Assembly (NCBI GenBank): GCA_947623305.1
Contig: CANQGQ010000008.1
Coordinates: forward strand, 13,434-77,433
Direction: 5' to 3'
Length of the DNA stretch: 64,000 bases
From: an uncultured Alistipes sp.
Lineage (GTDB): Bacteria; Bacteroidota; Bacteroidia; Bacteroidales; Rikenellaceae
In this document: piece by piece, positions 30,886 through 34,046 of the stretch
Layout of the letters: the number at the start of each line of letters is the position of its first letter
Position numbering within the stretch: the stretch's first letter is position 1
The notes under the pieces: model-generated
The model's database searches: none
Told to the model about the DNA's origin: nothing
The model's input: the letters and a program-made list of their open reading frames with translations, nothing else
Made by a program: the position numbers and the translations under genes

Positions 30886-32091
30886 ATGAATGAAGTGAAT
30901 CTTTCGATTTTCCGTCGGGAGTTGATCGACGTCTTGCAACGGAATATTCTTCCGTATTGGATGAACAAGATGATGGATCCGCGCGGCGGCTTTTACGGAC
31001 GGCGCGACGGTTACGACCGGCTCGATCCCGATGCGCCCAAAGGCGCCGTGTTGCATGCCCGCATTCTGTGGACGTTTGCTACGGCTTATCGGATATTGGG
31101 CGAGGAAGCCTATCTTCGCGTTGCCGAATATGCCGAACGTTATGTCGTCGAGCGGTTCCTGGATGCCGTTTACGGGGGAGCCTATTGGTCTCTGACCGCC
31201 GACGGAACGCCCCTCGATGAGAAAAAACAGTTTTATGCACTCGCATTCATGCTTTACGGATTGGCGGCTTATCATCGTGCGACCGGCGATGCCGATGCTT
31301 TGCAACAGGCGACCGCCTTGTTCCGTACCATAGAGAAGCACAGCCGCGACCGCCGATTCGGAGGATACATCGAGGCGACGACCCGTTCGTGGGCTCCGAT
31401 TTCCGACATGCGTCTCAGTTCGAAAGACCGGAATGCCTGCAAGACGATGAACACCCATTTGCATATCATCGAGGCTTATACGGAACTGTATCGGGTGTGG
31501 CGCAATCCCGAATTGTCGGAAGCTATCGTTGCCCTGCTCGATCTTTTTTTTACGAAGATCGAAAATCCCGAAACGCACCATTCGGTTCTTTTTTTCGACG
31601 AACATTGGCGACCGCTCGATCGGGGCATCTCCTATGGGCACGATATCGAAGCCTCGTGGTTGTTGCTCGACGCTGCACGGACACTCGATGACCCGCTTCT
31701 TTTGCGCCGTGCCGTGTCCCACACAGCCCGAATGGCCGATGCGGCTTCGCAGGGAATTCGGGACGACGGTTCGTTGATCTACGAAATCCGGAACGACGGA
31801 ACGGTCGATGACGATCGTCATTGGTGGGTGCAGGCCGAATGCGTTGTGGGACAATTATACCGGTATCGGTATCATGGCCGTCCCGAAGCCTTGGCGGCGG
31901 CTTGGCGGACTTGGAAATATATCGAATTCTGTTTGGTGGATTCAGCCGGCGGCGAGTGGCATTGGAGCCGTCGCGGGAGAGACGGGACGATTGATTTCGA
32001 GGACGACAAGGCCGGTTTCTGGAAATGTCCGTATCACAACAGCCGTATGGTGTTGGAAGCGGTGGAACATATTTTCGATTGCGATTGTTGA
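30886..32091 (+). CDS. AGE-family cellobiose/mannobiose 2-epimerase
   Basis: HARILWTF, KKQFYA, KTMNTHLHIIEAY, SYGHDIEASWLL, WWVQAE, WKCPYHNSR. Confidence 0.92.
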   Translation: MNEVNLSIFRRELIDVLQRNILPYWMNKMMDPRGGFYGRRDGYDRLDPDAPKGAVLHARILWTFATAYRILGEEAYLRVAEYAERYVVERFLDAVYGGAYWSLTADGTPLDEKKQFYALAFMLYGLAAYHRATGDADALQQATALFRTIEKHSRDRRFGGYIEATTRSWAPISDMRLSSKDRNACKTMNTHLHIIEAYTELYRVWRNPELSEAIVALLDLFFTKIENPETHHSVLFFDEHWRPLDRGISYGHDIEASWLLLDAARTLDDPLLLRRAVSHTARMADAASQGIRDDGSLIYEIRNDGTVDDDRHWWVQAECVVGQLYRYRYHGRPEALAAAWRTWKYIEFCLVDSAGGEWHWSRRGRDGTIDFEDDKAGFWKCPYHNSRMVLEAVEHIFDCDC

Positions 32092-32279
32092 CTCTTACGT
32101 GCCGATGCCTTTTGACCCGAATTTTTGAACTCGCTTCTTTTTTGCCGCATTTGCCGTATGCCGTTCCATCCATCCGCCTTGGTGGGGCATCGGTCGGAAT
32201 TCCGAATCTTCCGAGCCTTGGGGATGTTGGGGGACGGATGATTGTCCTAAAATTTTGCAGCAAAGCGACCGCAAAGTCG

Positions 32280-32310
32280 TTGTTTCCCGAATAATTTTTC
32301 CCTATATTTG
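32280..32310 (+). promoter_or_regulatory. Bacteroidota promoter upstream of the structured leader and XRE gene
   Basis: TTG (32280-32282), 20-nt spacer, TATATTTG (32303-32310). Confidence 0.7.
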
Positions 32311-32346
32311 TCTCGCAGCCTGTACGGACTGTGGATAGTTGAATAA

Positions 32347-32511
32347 AAAGCGCATCGGCTTTTTTCTTACGACCGAAATCTGGAAAATTTCAACAAAGTA
32401 AGGAACAAAGGTTGATGCTCTCGCTGTTTTCCGGCGTGGGCATATTCCGTCATCTTACTTTGTGGGCATTCCAGAGCCTCGGTCGTGGATTCGGAATCTT
32501 GTCCGCGCTTT
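32347..32511 (+). ncRNA. Putative rod-shaped structured 5' leader RNA
   Basis: Five nested helices: 32347-53/32505-11, 32369-76/32479-86, 32379-85/32469-75, 32393-402/32454-63, 32415-26/32432-43. Confidence 0.6.
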
Positions 32512-32527
32512 GTTATGGGATGACGGC

Positions 32528-32770
32528 ATGATACATATCGGTAAATTGATCGAGGCGGAGCTGCGACGGCAGGAGCGGACGGTGAGCTGGTTCGCCCGAA
32601 AACTCTATTGCGAACGTACCAATGTCTACGACATCTTCAAGCGTCGGAGCATAGATACCGATATGCTGCTGCGAATCTCGTTCGTTTTGCATCACAATTT
32701 TTTCCGCTATTATTGGTGCGAGGCCGAGGGGCTCGGTTCCGAGCCGGCCGAGCCTGCGGAGCGTCAATAA
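32528..32770 (+). CDS. Small XRE/Cro-type HTH transcriptional regulator (Bacteroidales type)
   Basis: MIHIGKLIEAELRRQERTVSWFARKLYCERTNVYDIFKRRSIDTDMLLRISFVLHHNFF; 80 aa. ATG 32528. Confidence 0.8.
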   Translation: MIHIGKLIEAELRRQERTVSWFARKLYCERTNVYDIFKRRSIDTDMLLRISFVLHHNFFRYYWCEAEGLGSEPAEPAERQ

Positions 32771-32833
32771 TTTTCAACACTTCCGTACGATTTTCGAGTA
32801 CACTCGATTCGCTGTGCGAACGTCCGTTCGACG

Positions 32834-32841
32834 TATTTTTG
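32834..32841 (+). promoter_or_regulatory. -7 promoter element of the lipoprotein gene, preceded by two palindromes
   Basis: TATTTTTG; palindromes at 32794-32807 and 32817-32830. Confidence 0.5.
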
Positions 32842-32883
32842 CACCCGACAAACAAACATTCATTCATTAAATCAATTTGTGTT

Positions 32884-33228
32884 ATGAAAAAAATGAAACT
32901 TTTCTTGATGATGTTCATCGCAGCTGCCAGCGTATGCGGTTTCACGGCTTGCGACGACGATGACGACAAGGGGGCGTCCTCTCCGATTGTCGGAACATGG
33001 GAATATCGGGAGCCCGGATTGGTTGACACCTACACCTTTTCGGCAAACGGTTCGTACACTAACAGTTGGTATGAGGAAGGCTATGATTCGGACTCCGATC
33101 ATGGTACTTATACCTATGAAGGGACGACGCTTACACTGAATAGTCCCGAGTATGGTGTAGATACATACACGGCGACGATTTCAGGCGATAAACTGACTCT
33201 CGACGGTGATGTGTATATCCGTAAATAG
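32884..33228 (+). CDS. Small lipocalin-like beta-barrel lipoprotein, probably surface-exposed
   Basis: Lipobox FTAC followed by DDDDDK (acidic export-signal-like), IVGTW, GTYTY; 114 aa. Confidence 0.75.
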   Translation: MKKMKLFLMMFIAAASVCGFTACDDDDDKGASSPIVGTWEYREPGLVDTYTFSANGSYTNSWYEEGYDSDSDHGTYTYEGTTLTLNSPEYGVDTYTATISGDKLTLDGDVYIRK

Positions 33229-33252
33229 TCTTAATGGACTTCTGACCGAAAG

Positions 33253-33295
33253 CGCGGCCGCTTCTTTTCTTTAGGAAGCGGCCGCGGGCTTTTTT
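33253..33295 (+). terminator. Intrinsic terminator (probably bidirectional)
   Basis: CGCGGCCGCTTC...GAAGCGGCCGCG, then GGCTTTTTT. Confidence 0.7.
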
Positions 33296-33386: not shown

Positions 33387-34046
33387 TTAATAAAATTGCA
33401 CGAAGCGGCCCCGTTCGGTCAGACAGTAGGGACAGAAATCGGGTTCGTGTTCCGTGAGCGCGAGGTTGCCGCATACGGGACAAACCGTATAGGTTCGGAC
33501 CGTGTCTTGCGGGTGCCGTCGGTTGAGGCTCTGTTCCAGCAGGATGATGTGCTGCCGGTCGCCGGCATCGGCCCGGGCCAGAATCTGGGCCGCATAACGG
33601 TTGCCTGCCGACATGGCCCGATGAATCTCCTTGCCGCATCGCGTATGGAGCGATTGTTGTTCGTAGCGCAGACTGCGTTCTAAATTGCCGTCGGTCGTGC
33701 CGCGGAACACGATCACCTTGACCGGCGGCTCGTAGTGCCCGCCCAACCGGACGATGGCTTCGGCGCAGATGCCCTCATGCACCCGTTCGGAGAGCGCCAT
33801 GGCGCGGAACAGACGTGCCGTGTGCTCCTGCTGTTCGCGATGGGCGATGTCGGCGAAGTATTCGTATTGCATCGACTTGGCGTGTTTGCGGCGGCCGCAG
33901 GCATCGAGATCGGCGAGCGTTTCGGCTTGGCGGGGTTTCGCAGCCGGCCGCTGTTCTTGCTTTCGGGTTGCGGCGTAATAGATCCACGTCAGCACACCGG
34001 TGGAGAGCACGAAAAGCAACAGAATGAAGAGGGGACGCACTTTCAT
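33387..34046 (-). CDS. Rubrerythrin-like protein with N-terminal membrane anchor and degenerate diiron site
   Basis: Ferritin-like helices (ARLFRAMALSERVH) and C-terminal rubredoxin-like CPVC...CPYC; hydrophobic N-terminus. Confidence 0.7.
   Translation of the reverse strand: MKVRPLFILLLFVLSTGVLTWIYYAATRKQEQRPAAKPRQAETLADLDACGRRKHAKSMQYEYFADIAHREQQEHTARLFRAMALSERVHEGICAEAIVRLGGHYEPPVKVIVFRGTTDGNLERSLRYEQQSLHTRCGKEIHRAMSAGNRYAAQILARADAGDRQHIILLEQSLNRRHPQDTVRTYTVCPVCGNLALTEHEPDFCPYCLTERGRFVQFY

What the first reader, a model, noticed from the sequence alone, without database searches (positions are those of the whole stretch)
32311..32527. ~165-nt rod-shaped 5' leader between a strong promoter and an XRE gene
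Seen: after a consensus promoter, the 217-nt untranslated region folds back into five nested helices: AAAGCGC/GCGCTTT (32347/32505), ACGACCGA/TCGGTCGT (32369/32479), TCTGGAA/TTCCAGA (32379/32469), ACAAAGTAAG/CTTACTTTGT (32393/32454), and the apical ATGCTCtCGCTG/CGGCGtGGGCAT with G-U pairs. The 5' arm can instead form a small terminator-like AAAAAGC-gcatcg-GCTTTTTT (32345-32365), which competes with the outer helix. The rod ends 16 nt before the ATG. I recall similar leaders in other Bacteroidales but cannot assign a named Rfam family. Inference: an undescribed cis-regulatory RNA (attenuator, RNase III-processed leader or translation switch) controlling an HTH/surface-lipoprotein cassette.
Basis: partly seen in the sequence, partly recalled or inferred. 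Interest (0 to 1): 0.72.

Follow-up and report, generated by a model that had tools for sequence, protein, structure and literature searches.

The report
Two-fold leader RNA, multicopy Bacteroidales family
The rod-shaped stretch is real and is one somewhat decayed copy of a large RNA family, absent from Rfam, that sits in front of surface-protein and small regulator genes across gut Bacteroidales and can refold from a long rod into a transcription terminator, so it probably decides whether the gene behind it is expressed.

Summary
The fold is far more stable than shuffles (z -5.9). It is not specific to this gene. A covariance model finds about 16-19 copies in this Alistipes genome. It also finds copies in 27 of 31 genera of the family and in about 50 other Bacteroidales families. 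No Rfam 15 family matches.

Across 93 copies the rod shows massive compensatory change. Each half of the rod can also fold alone. The 3' half then forms a long hairpin whose G+C-rich base (CGUGGGC:GUCCCACG) abuts a conserved U-tract, which is an intrinsic terminator. Nucleotides that are conserved but unpaired in the rod pair in this second fold.

Of the 93 copies, 80 lie a median of 52 nt before a co-oriented gene. Of those genes, 71% have a signal peptide, against 24% in the background.

Best reading: a bistable attenuator leader resembling the zipper type, with an unknown trigger. The window copy, its paralogue and its orthologue all precede an 80-aa HTH-like gene and have degraded U-tracts. 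No expression data could be obtained.

The parts
32279..32310 (+). Promoter: -33-like GTTG (32279-32282) and -7 box TATATTTG (32303-32310). The inferred transcription start is near 32317-32320.
   Evidence: Sequence read. The TAnnTTTG/TTTG form is the established Bacteroidetes sigma-ABfr consensus (named in PMC11697453). A TAnnTTTG box lies within 110 nt upstream of 63 of 93 family members. The start site is inferred, not mapped.
32316..32331 (+). Small copy-specific 5' hairpin CAGCC-UGUAC-GG(A)CUG. It contains GCCTGTA (32318-32324), a degenerate form of the family's GCCUAUG mini-ORF box with no ATG left.
   Evidence: other copies have a variable hairpin in the same place; 60 of 93 copies carry GCCTATG plus a 1-7-codon ORF.
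32345..32364 (+). P1, the weak 5' hairpin AAAAAGC-GCAUCG-GCUUUUU. Its 5' strand is also the 5' strand of the closing helix P0.
   Evidence: Family-wide it is 95.8% paired with compensatory changes (pair 31-47: GC 78, AU 11).
32347..32511 (+). Rod fold:
- P0: 32347-32353 with 32505-32511
- P2: 32369-32376 with 32479-32486
- P3: 32379-32385 with 32469-32475
- P4: 32393-32402 with 32454-32463
- P5: 32415-32426 with 32432-32443, loop 32427-32431
   Evidence: Fold. Covariation: P2 98.8% and P3 99.7% paired, with up to 4-5 pair types per position. P0 is 87% paired but hardly covaries.
32353..32417 (+). H5, the alternative hairpin of the 5' half alone. CAUCGGCUUUUUUCUUAC pairs with GUAAGGAACAAAGGUUGAUG, and the apex is GAAAU...AUUUC.
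   Evidence: -23.5 kcal/mol for the window copy. H5 is the minimum-energy fold of the growing transcript until about 32460; family pair counts.
32433..32509 (+). T, the alternative hairpin of the 3' half alone. The base GGCGUGGGCA (32433-32442) pairs with UGUCCGCGCU (32500-32509), and the apex is GGGC...GCCU. In the family this hairpin is the intrinsic terminator.
   Evidence: -33.7 kcal/mol. RNAalifold on the 3' halves alone predicts it, with covariation; family pair counts; free-standing relatives of this hairpin lie after genes.
32484..32507 (+). Short local hairpin CGUGGA-(12 nt)-UCCGCG. This is a smaller terminator-like alternative that needs only the bottom 3 bp of P2 to open.
   Evidence: Read from the sequence. 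It is perfect in close relatives (CGCGGAUAAA-GGAA-UUUGUCCGCG; sequences). It is not general in the family.
32509..32516 (+). Degraded U-tract, TTTGTTAT.
   Evidence: 79 of 93 copies have at least 7 T in 8 nt here; the window has 6, and they are interrupted. The two other HTH-linked copies are also degraded (GCGCCTTTTGTGT and GCGCCCCTTTATT).
32528..32770 (+). 80-aa HTH-like protein, the gene directly behind the leader.
   Evidence: Translation. Profile support is weak only: HigA antidote E = 0.013, and HTH_28 E = 0.038 for the paralogue. A paralogue lies behind another copy of the RNA (G000:C6:74371) and an orthologue behind the RNA in another Alistipes (L065).
32835..33228 (+). Separate unit: -7 box TATTTTTG (32835-32842) and a 114-aa lipocalin-like surface lipoprotein gene (32884-33228).
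   Evidence: Pfam Lipocalin_4, E = 1.8e-6.

Best explanation
The stretch 32316-32516 is one member of a widespread, uncatalogued family of 5' leader RNAs of Bacteroidales, about 175-235 nt long, that can take two mutually exclusive folds.

Fold 1 is the long rod (P2-P5). It is closed by pairing of the 5' A-rich AAAGCG segment with the CG and U-tract at the 3' end (P0). This ties up the 3' strand of the terminator.

Fold 2 is two side-by-side hairpins. The 5' half folds on itself (H5). The 3' half folds on itself into a long hairpin (T) whose G+C-rich base stands directly before a U-tract, which makes it an intrinsic terminator.

I infer that the choice of fold during transcription decides whether RNA polymerase stops after about 180 nt or reads on into the gene, typically 30-80 nt downstream. 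That gene has no promoter of its own.

Shown here by computation: the family, both folds, their conservation, the U-tract, the gene context, and use of the T hairpin as a free-standing terminator elsewhere in the genome.

Inferred: that termination and read-through really occur, which fold is the default, and what flips it. Candidates for the trigger are a protein, polymerase speed, or ribosomes on the conserved 2-3-codon reading frame near the 5' end.

The window copy has lost that small reading frame and has a weakened U-tract. It stands only 16 nt before the start codon of a small HTH-like gene. Here the element probably leaks more. It may act as much on translation or stability of the HTH mRNA as on termination.
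For: Family and spread:
- There are 16-19 copies in the window's own genome.
- The model hits 22 of 24 genomes of the genus.
- It hits 98 of 151 genomes and 27 of 31 genera of the family.
- It hits 70 of 301 genomes and 58 of 209 genera of the order, under strict filters.
- Named hosts include Alistipes putredinis DSM 17216, A. muris, Rikenellaceae, Prevotellaceae, Paludibacteraceae, Bacteroidaceae, Tannerella, Muribaculaceae and Odoribacter.

Rod: covariation is strong.

Second fold:
- The 3' halves alone fold to a mean of -28.6 kcal/mol (z about -3.7), with the stem base next to the U-tract. The 5' halves fold to -21.7 kcal/mol.
- RNAalifold on 59 3' halves, aligned without reference to the rod, predicts T with compensatory pairs (8-86: UA 30, CG 16, UG 12; 40-52: UA 47, CG 8).
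- On the 93-sequence alignment the H5+T pairs are 83.6% paired, against 40-52% when slid. Cells changed on both sides number 177, against 97 in shuffles.
- The tail varies together with the apical strands (CACG/CGUG, CGCG/CGCG, CACA/UGUG, CAUGC/GCGUG).

Terminator:
- The U-tract has at least 7 T in 8 nt in 79 of 93 copies.
- Eight free-standing hairpins of the same design (-28 to -41 kcal/mol, followed by UUUCUUUUU) occur elsewhere in the genome. For five of the eight my gene caller finds a co-oriented coding ORF ending 78-221 nt upstream.

Leader position:
- 80 of 93 copies are followed within 200 nt (median 51.5) by a co-oriented ORF.
- 57 of those ORFs look like signal-peptide proteins and 34 like lipoproteins, against 24% and 6% of 918 background genes.
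- Only 2 of 80 have a TAnnTTTG box between the U-tract and the ATG.

Folding order and zipper logic:
- In the window copy H5 is the minimum-energy fold until about 32460, and the rod from 32470 onwards.
- In the rod fold the tail pairs with the 5' region in most copies. This matches the zipper-type logic described for pLS20 (PMC13401043).
Against: - There are no transcript data.
- The rod is on average about 19 kcal/mol more stable than H5+T. It should also nucleate quickly from the apical hairpin. T may therefore rarely form without a factor that nobody has identified.
- Covariation for H5, T and P0 is much weaker than for the rod, because those segments are conserved in sequence. In addition, I derived the H5/T structure from the same sequences on which I then counted it.
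- Six or seven copies in this genome have a promoter and a strong terminator but no gene behind them. Those copies look like small RNA genes, not leaders.
- In the window copy the U-tract is interrupted, so termination may be weak or lost there.
Confidence: 0.6

Rival explanations
1. It is a family of trans-acting small RNA genes (paralogous sRNAs). Each copy is made from its own promoter and ended at the U-tract, and it acts on other mRNAs or titrates a protein. On this reading its position next to genes is incidental.
For: - Six or seven copies in this genome, 85-90% identical to one another, have a TAnnTTTG box 10 nt upstream and a strong GCCCGC-U7 end. They are followed by convergent genes.
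- Multicopy sRNA families with canonical promoters are known in Bacteroides: FopS with 14 copies and the BTnc020 group (PMC11697453).
- Terminated leaders can also act in trans.
Against: - 80 of 93 copies stand 10-200 nt before a co-oriented gene that has no promoter of its own. Those genes are strongly enriched for secreted proteins.
- The window copy abuts its ORF (16 nt), and the arrangement is kept in an orthologue.
- There is no conserved single-stranded seed. The conserved unpaired bases are explained by the second fold.
Confidence: 0.15
2. It is a static structured 5' UTR with no switch. The rod simply stabilises the mRNA, or is cut by RNase III to give a processed 5' end. The apparent second fold is a by-product of the element having evolved from a terminator hairpin.
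For: - The rod is far more stable than the alternative.
- The fully zipped rod is a long duplex with G-U pairs and small internal loops, which is a typical RNase III substrate. This rests on established knowledge and was not tested here.
- The window copy and the two other HTH-linked copies have degraded U-tracts.
Against: - The U-tract is kept in 79 of 93 copies.
- The tail directly before it stays complementary to the apical 3' strand through compensatory changes.
- The bases that are conserved yet unpaired in the rod are exactly those that pair in H5 and T. A static rod would not need any of these three features.
Confidence: 0.15
3. It is a DNA-level repeat (a MITE-, REP- or Correia-like palindrome) that spread through the genome and has no RNA function.
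For: It is multicopy, palindromic and intergenic. Other short repeat families lie nearby.
Against: - Copies differ by 20-30% yet keep pairing through double changes.
- Many pairs are conserved G-U, which would be A-C on the other strand (for example 106-303 UG in 88 of 93, 108-301 UG in 81, 167-250 UG in 72).
- Orientation relative to the promoter and the downstream gene is fixed.
- Hits on the reverse strand score far lower.
- Homology ends at the RNA borders, with no terminal repeats or target duplications noticed.
Confidence: 0.04
4. It is the mRNA of a type I toxin. The conserved ATG in the apical stem (32415) would open a 21-38-aa hydrophobic peptide, and the rod would hide the start codon.
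For: In the copies in this genome the ATG opens MLALFFSAGISSIFF-like peptides (read from the sequences). Type I toxin mRNAs are multicopy and tightly folded (established knowledge).
Against: - The ATG is missing in most relatives (GTTGGTG, GTAAACG, TTTGACG, GTGGACG).
- The reading frame after about 15 codons differs between paralogues.
- Changes follow base-pairing, not codon, logic.
Confidence: 0.01

Closest known systems
Zipper-type transcriptional attenuator cATT of Bacillus subtilis plasmid pLS20 (Gonzalez-Alvarez et al., NAR 2026, PMC13401043)
   Same: [quoted passage not shown]
- In both, the upstream segment is complementary to the terminator region, so the long stem can zip further and block the terminator.
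- Here P1 is the weak upstream stem-loop, P2-P5 the long stem, and P0 the zip extension. P0 pairs with the CG and U-tract.
   Different: - There is no sequence relationship.
- The hosts are Gram-negative Bacteroidales, not Firmicutes plasmids.
- There are many copies per chromosome, placed before unrelated secreted-protein genes rather than one copy before a conjugation operon.
- In most members the terminator is not a small local hairpin. It is a refolding of the whole 3' half of the rod (T), mirrored by a 5' hairpin (H5).
- A conserved 2-3-codon reading frame lies upstream.
- Nothing has been tested experimentally.
Classical terminator/antiterminator leaders (trp-type attenuators, riboswitch expression platforms, BglG/LicT RAT leaders)
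   Same: One strand (here CGUGGGC plus the 3' strand of P4) has two mutually exclusive partners. One pairing forms a hairpin followed by a U-tract directly before the regulated gene.
   Different: - No leader peptide rich in a regulatory amino acid.
- No recognisable aptamer and no shared metabolic theme among the downstream genes.
- No RAT-like motif and no adjacent antiterminator gene.
- The antiterminator is a rod of about 55 base pairs.
FopS and other multicopy sRNA families of Bacteroides thetaiotaomicron (PMC11697453)
   Same: Many paralogous copies per Bacteroidales genome, canonical TAnnTTTG promoters, and U-tract ends. The six or seven orphan copies in this genome look similar in layout.
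   Different: - FopS RNAs are 65-70 nt, with a single-stranded 5' seed and one terminator hairpin, and they are in Rfam.
- This family is 175-235 nt, fully paired and mostly gene-linked, and it matches no Rfam model.
UpxY (NusG-like) antitermination in the leaders of Bacteroides capsule operons (PMC11685472; only the title and the start of the abstract were seen)
   Same: A Bacteroidales system in which elongation through a long 5' leader decides expression of surface structures.
   Different: That system depends on a locus-specific NusG paralogue encoded by the first gene of the operon. No such gene follows this leader, and no sequence or structure similarity was examined.

Membership tests
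Any Rfam 15 family | A covariance-model match at or near the family's gathering score | tested here: not met
   No match overlaps the element at E <= 10 in the window, at E <= 1 in 7 loci of this genome, or at E <= 1 in 12 loci from other genera.
This uncatalogued Bacteroidales leader family (model R1) | A full-length match to the covariance model and the same helices P1-P6 | tested here: met
   The window copy scores 171 bits, E = 3.5e-41. It was one of the 7 seed sequences. Independent members score 40-160 bits.
This uncatalogued Bacteroidales leader family (model R1) | A 3' half able to form the T hairpin directly before a U-tract | tested here: inconclusive
   The T hairpin is present (-33.7 kcal/mol). 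The U-tract is interrupted (TTTGTTAT, 6 T in 8, against at least 7 in 79 of 93 copies).
This uncatalogued Bacteroidales leader family (model R1) | An upstream GCCUAUG mini-reading frame | tested here: not met
   The window has GCCTGTA at 32318-32324 and no ATG. The motif is present in 60 of 93 members.
Zipper-type attenuator (cATT, pLS20) | [quoted passage not shown] | tested here: met
   P1 (32345-32364), the rod P2-P5, and T or the local hairpin plus U-tract. This is a resemblance in design only.
Zipper-type attenuator (cATT, pLS20) | Upstream stem-loop sequence complementary to the terminator, extending the long stem | tested here: met
   P0 AAAGCGC/GCGCTTT in the window. In the family it is 87% paired. 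In the rod fold the tail pairs with the 5' region in most copies.
Zipper-type attenuator (cATT, pLS20) | Demonstrated termination and antitermination; location before conjugation operons of Gram-positive plasmids | tested here: not met
   The context is chromosomal genes for secreted proteins and an HTH-like protein in Bacteroidales. Function is not testable with these tools.
FopS sRNA family | A 65-70-nt RNA with a single-stranded 5' seed (R1') and one terminator hairpin | tested here: not met
   The description is in PMC11697453. This element is about 180 nt and fully paired, and it does not match the Rfam model the authors deposited.
Type I toxin mRNA | A conserved short hydrophobic ORF with a conserved start codon | tested here: not met
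   The start codon is absent in most homologues.
MITE / REP-type DNA repeat | Strand-symmetric palindrome, near-identical copies, target-site duplications | tested here: not met
   Conserved G-U pairs, fixed orientation and 70-90% identity with compensatory changes.
Riboswitch | A conserved ligand pocket and downstream genes that share a pathway | tested here: inconclusive
   The downstream genes are diverse secreted proteins and lipoproteins. The conserved unpaired bases are accounted for by the second fold. Ligand binding is not testable here.

The most novel reading that the evidence does not exclude
The family is a genome-wide switch for the variable surface and secreted proteome of gut Bacteroidales. 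Up to about 19 copies per genome (counted in this genome) would read one common signal by choosing between the rod and the terminator fold. The sensor could be a so far unknown RNA-binding factor. More unusually, it could be ribosomes on the conserved 5'-proximal GCCUAUG reading frame of only 1-7 codons (mostly 2-3). That would be a new form of translation-coupled attenuation in a phylum that lacks Shine-Dalgarno-led initiation. Orphan copies would add a trans-acting arm.
Probability: 0.3. Interest if true: 0.85.

Novelty: new variant of a known kind. Interest (0 to 1): 0.7.

Why it matters
Bacteroidales dominate the mammalian gut. Their surface lipoproteins and secreted proteins shape nutrient capture, phage and immune recognition, and competition.

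If this reading is right, one uncatalogued leader RNA stands before many of these genes. Under strict search filters it is present in at least a quarter of Bacteroidales genera, including cultured Alistipes strains. Its design is also unusual: the antiterminator is a 55-bp rod, and the terminator is made from half of it.

The family gives a concrete, testable handle on co-ordinated control of accessory surface genes. It would also give Rfam and genome annotation a new, abundant family. Many 'orphan promoters', long hairpins and odd long terminators in these genomes would be explained by it.

Tried and rejected
1. Rfam 15 scans of the window, 7 loci of this genome and 12 loci from other genera found nothing overlapping the element.
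2. FopS was read about and rejected on size and architecture.
3. A type I toxin ORF starting at the apical ATG was rejected, because the ATG is not conserved.
4. A specific link to the HTH ('XRE') protein was tested. The protein occurs in only 3 of 41 related genomes, and its other homologues mostly lack the RNA. An orthologue in another Alistipes does keep the RNA (L065). The link is therefore local, not a family trait.
5. A MITE or REP origin was rejected on G-U pairs, fixed orientation and compensatory changes.
6. The outer helix P0 as the main switch partner of P1 was tested. P0 is compatible but shows almost no covariation. The larger H5/T refolding explains more.
8. The Fremin & Bhatt catalogue of candidate RNAs (PMC8040213) mentions palindromic, terminator-like Bacteroidetes candidates (for example HMP2_4205, 132 bp). 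Its sequences were not checked, so overlap with this family is possible but unverified.

Full report
**1.

- The -7 box TATATTTG is at 32303-32310. This is the Bacteroidetes TAnnTTTG form. GTTG lies 20 nt upstream.
- The small hairpin AAAAAGC/GCTTTTT is at 32345-32364.
- The nested helices are P0 (32347-32353 with 32505-32511), P2 (32369-32376 with 32479-32486), P3 (32379-32385 with 32469-32475), P4 (32393-32402 with 32454-32463) and P5 (32415-32426 with 32432-32443).

RNAfold of 32311-32527 gives -83.5 kcal/mol against -60.0 +/- 4.0 for shuffles, z = -5.85. The ORF behind it starts at ATG 32528 and encodes 80 aa.

**2. It is a large family, not a one-off leader**

A DNA search of the window's own genome found six further copies at 71-80% identity. 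I built a covariance model from seven copies. It finds 16-19 places in this 2.9-Mb genome.

| Search scope | Genomes with a hit | Genera with a hit |
|---|---|---|
| Same genus | 22 of 24 | – |
| Same family | 98 of 151 | 27 of 31 |
| Same order (strict filters) | 70 of 301 | 58 of 209 |

The hits were almost all Bacteroidales: Alistipes (including A. putredinis DSM 17216, A. muris and A. senegalensis), Rikenellaceae, Prevotellaceae, Paludibacteraceae, Bacteroidaceae, Tannerella, Muribaculaceae, Odoribacter and Symbiothrix. A handful of hits in unrelated phyla are about what chance predicts.

One contig of a 'same genus' genome has the same length as an A. muris record that carries a pattern match at the same position. 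The window's genus is therefore Alistipes.

No Rfam 15 model matches the element in the window, in other copies in this genome, or in members from other genera.

**3. The rod is a conserved RNA structure**

On 93 members aligned to the model, 90.9% of cells are paired. That compares with 71% in shuffles and 32-49% when partners are slid. Of 55 pairs, 51 show changes on both sides, in 997 cells against 273 expected; 0 of 500 shuffles reach this.

P2, P3 and P4 each show three to five pair types per position. Many pairs are conserved G-U, so the structure belongs to the + strand RNA, not to DNA.

**4. There is a second, mutually exclusive fold**

The consensus has blocks that are conserved yet unpaired in the rod: GAAAcUU, UUUCAA, GGUAGUC, AAGACCUC and the tail GUCCCACG before the U-tract.

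- The tail is always complementary to the 3' strand of the apical helix. It changes with it: CACG/CGUG, CGCG/CGCG, CACA/UGUG, CAUGC/GCGUG.
- Folded alone, the 3' halves form long hairpins (mean -28.6 kcal/mol, z about -3.7). Their G+C-rich base abuts the U-tract and their apex is GGU...ACC.
- The 5' halves form a hairpin (mean -21.7 kcal/mol) whose apex is GAAA...UUUC.
- RNAalifold on 59 3' halves, aligned without reference to the rod, predicts this hairpin with compensatory pairs.
- Counted on the 93-sequence alignment, H5+T is 83.6% paired against 40-52% when slid, with 177 double-change cells against 97 in shuffles.

This support is weaker than for the rod, because these segments are conserved in sequence, and because I derived the structure from the same sequences. 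The rod is on average about 19 kcal/mol more stable than the two hairpins together.

**5. The 3' hairpin looks like a real terminator**

- The U-tract has at least 7 T in 8 nt in 79 of 93 members.
- Eight free-standing hairpins of the same design occur elsewhere in this genome. Their base is GCGUGGGG/CACCACGC, the middle CUUAUUU/GAAUAAG and the apex GGUAUCCUACGACC. They fold at -28 to -41 kcal/mol and are followed by UUUCUUUUU.
- For five of the eight my gene caller finds a co-oriented coding ORF ending 78-221 nt upstream.

**6. Most members are leaders**

- Of 93 members, 80 are followed within 200 nt (median 51.5) by a co-oriented ORF of at least 60 aa.
- Of those, 57 have signal-peptide-like N-termini and 34 have lipoprotein boxes. 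The background is 24% and 6% of 918 genes from this genome (examples).
- Only 2 of 80 have a TAnnTTTG box between the U-tract and the ATG. The genes therefore depend on transcription through the element.
- A TAnnTTTG box lies within 110 nt upstream in 63 of 93.

**7. There are exceptions in this genome**

Six or seven copies, 85-90% identical to one another, have the promoter box 10 nt upstream and a strong GCCCGC-U7 end. They face convergent genes. They look like small RNA genes or orphaned leaders.

**8. The window copy**

It is a divergent member. After the promoter comes a small copy-specific hairpin (32316-32331) containing GCCTGTA. In 60 of 93 members the corresponding place holds GCCUAUG, which opens a reading frame of 1-7 codons, mostly 2-3. 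The window has no ATG there.

Its energies are:

| Fold | Coordinates | kcal/mol |
|---|---|---|
| T hairpin | 32433-32509 | -33.7 |
| H5 hairpin | 32353-32417 | -23.5 |
| Rod, 183 nt | – | -69 |
| Rod with 5' leader zipped onto the tail | 32311-32527 | -83.5 |

Folding of growing transcripts shows H5 as the best fold until about 32460. The rod is best from 32470 onwards.

The U-tract is interrupted (TTTGTTAT), and the ATG follows 16 nt after P0. Another copy in this genome (G000:C6:74371) precedes a paralogue of the same 80-aa protein. A copy in another Alistipes genome (L065) precedes an orthologue. Both have degraded U-tracts as well. In this sub-lineage the terminator is probably leaky, and the structure next to the start codon may matter for translation.

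The protein has only weak HTH support: HigA E = 0.013 and HTH_28 E = 0.038 for the paralogue. It has no Pfam hit of its own. It is rare, occurring in 3 of 41 related genomes, and its other homologues mostly lack the RNA.

The lipocalin-like lipoprotein gene (32884-33228; Pfam Lipocalin_4) has its own TATTTTTG box at 32835-32842.

**9. Mechanism**

The design is closest to the zipper-type attenuator described for pLS20: a weak upstream stem-loop, a long imperfect stem, a terminator, and upstream sequence that can zip onto the terminator region (PMC13401043). Here P1 is the weak stem-loop, P2-P5 the long stem and P0 the extension. In the rod fold the tail pairs with the 5' region in most members.

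The difference is that in most members the terminator is built from the whole 3' half of the rod, mirrored by a 5' hairpin.

I infer that the rod lets polymerase read on and that H5+T stops it. Which fold is the default, and what tips the balance, is unknown. A protein, polymerase speed, or ribosomes on the mini-frame are candidates.

**10. What could not be done**

No start site, 3' end or read-through could be checked.

**11. Earlier notes of this scan**

These are leads, not evidence. Other agents met what appears to be the same Bacteroidales family (e1-5200078, e1-4020053, e1-3746151, e1-5172315) and reached similar readings. I had found the multicopy family, the covariation and the small reading frame from my own analysis before I read any note naming them. 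The secreted-gene context and the two-hairpin fold had been mentioned in notes read; I then tested both on my own data.

Noticed in passing
L012:1688-1797 (G000:C1:84270-84379), with 7 more places in the genome: A family of eight free-standing long hairpins on the strand opposite to several orphan RNA copies. The hairpins begin GCGUGGGG, have GGUAUCCUACGACC at the apex and end CACCACGC followed by UUUCUUUUU. They have the same design as the 3' half (T) of the leader and lie behind convergent genes, so they look like unusually long intrinsic terminators related to the leader family.
   Followed up: partly
Relatives, e.g. L057:1430-1500, L073 and L030 (10-85 nt upstream of the RNA): The conserved motif (U/G)GCCUAUG opens a reading frame of only 1-7 codons (mostly 2-3) near the 5' end of the transcript. 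It occurs in 60 of 93 family members and is usually followed by a variable small hairpin. The window copy has the degenerate GCCTGTA (32318-32324). Whether it is translated is unknown.
   Followed up: partly
G000:C10:65888-66068, C1:124104-124283, C15:27744-27924, C1:84083-84264, C2:57750-57929, C1:397123-397303 (loci L009-L014): Six copies of the RNA, 85-90% identical to one another, have a promoter box 10 nt upstream, a strong U-tract and no co-oriented gene behind them. A 5'-truncated copy lies at C18:11839 and a 3'-truncated copy at C16:39925. They may be small RNA genes derived from leaders.
   Followed up: partly
G000:C19:36090-36296, C14:38719-38932, C9:71857-72072, C20:33545-33779 (L022, L023, L026, L027): Longer relatives (207-235 nt) share only the P3 region (CUGGAAAAUUUCA ... 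GGGCAUUCCAGAGCCUC) and the ends, and have an expanded apex (CACUCAUCAC ... GUGUGGGGUAUUGUUUAUUU). Three of the four precede lipoprotein or secreted-protein genes, one of them next to an integrase gene; what follows the C20 copy is unclear.
   Followed up: partly
Flanks of several copies in this genome, e.g. 55-115 nt upstream of C10:65888, C15:27744, C1:397123 and C16:39925; further copies about 3.3 kb away: A promoter-region repeat of about 85 nt (…CTCGGCAAAAATTGCAAACAAGTTTGCATTTTTGCGCTCGATTTTCGTATCTTTGTC) recurs in both orientations at many intergenic sites. It looks like a shared promoter cassette.
   Followed up: no
window 32794-32842: Between the HTH gene and the lipoprotein gene lie a TATTTTTG -7 box (32835-32842) and short palindromes noted by another first-stage finding (e1-5267745). 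These are candidate operators for the HTH protein.
   Followed up: no
window 33251-33295: GC-rich hairpin AAGCGCGGCCGCTTC...GAAGCGGCCGCGGGC followed by TTTTTT, directly after the lipoprotein gene. It looks like an ordinary intrinsic terminator.
   Followed up: no
window 30886-32091 and 33387-34046 (-): The flanking genes are ordinary: an N-acylglucosamine 2-epimerase family protein upstream (Pfam E = 3e-33) and a rubrerythrin-like protein downstream on the minus strand.
   Followed up: yes
L044:935-1077 (-): A Bacteroid-trp leader (RF01692) scores 52.7 bits against a gathering score of 49. It lies about 400 nt upstream of a family member in a related genome and is unrelated to the element.
   Followed up: no
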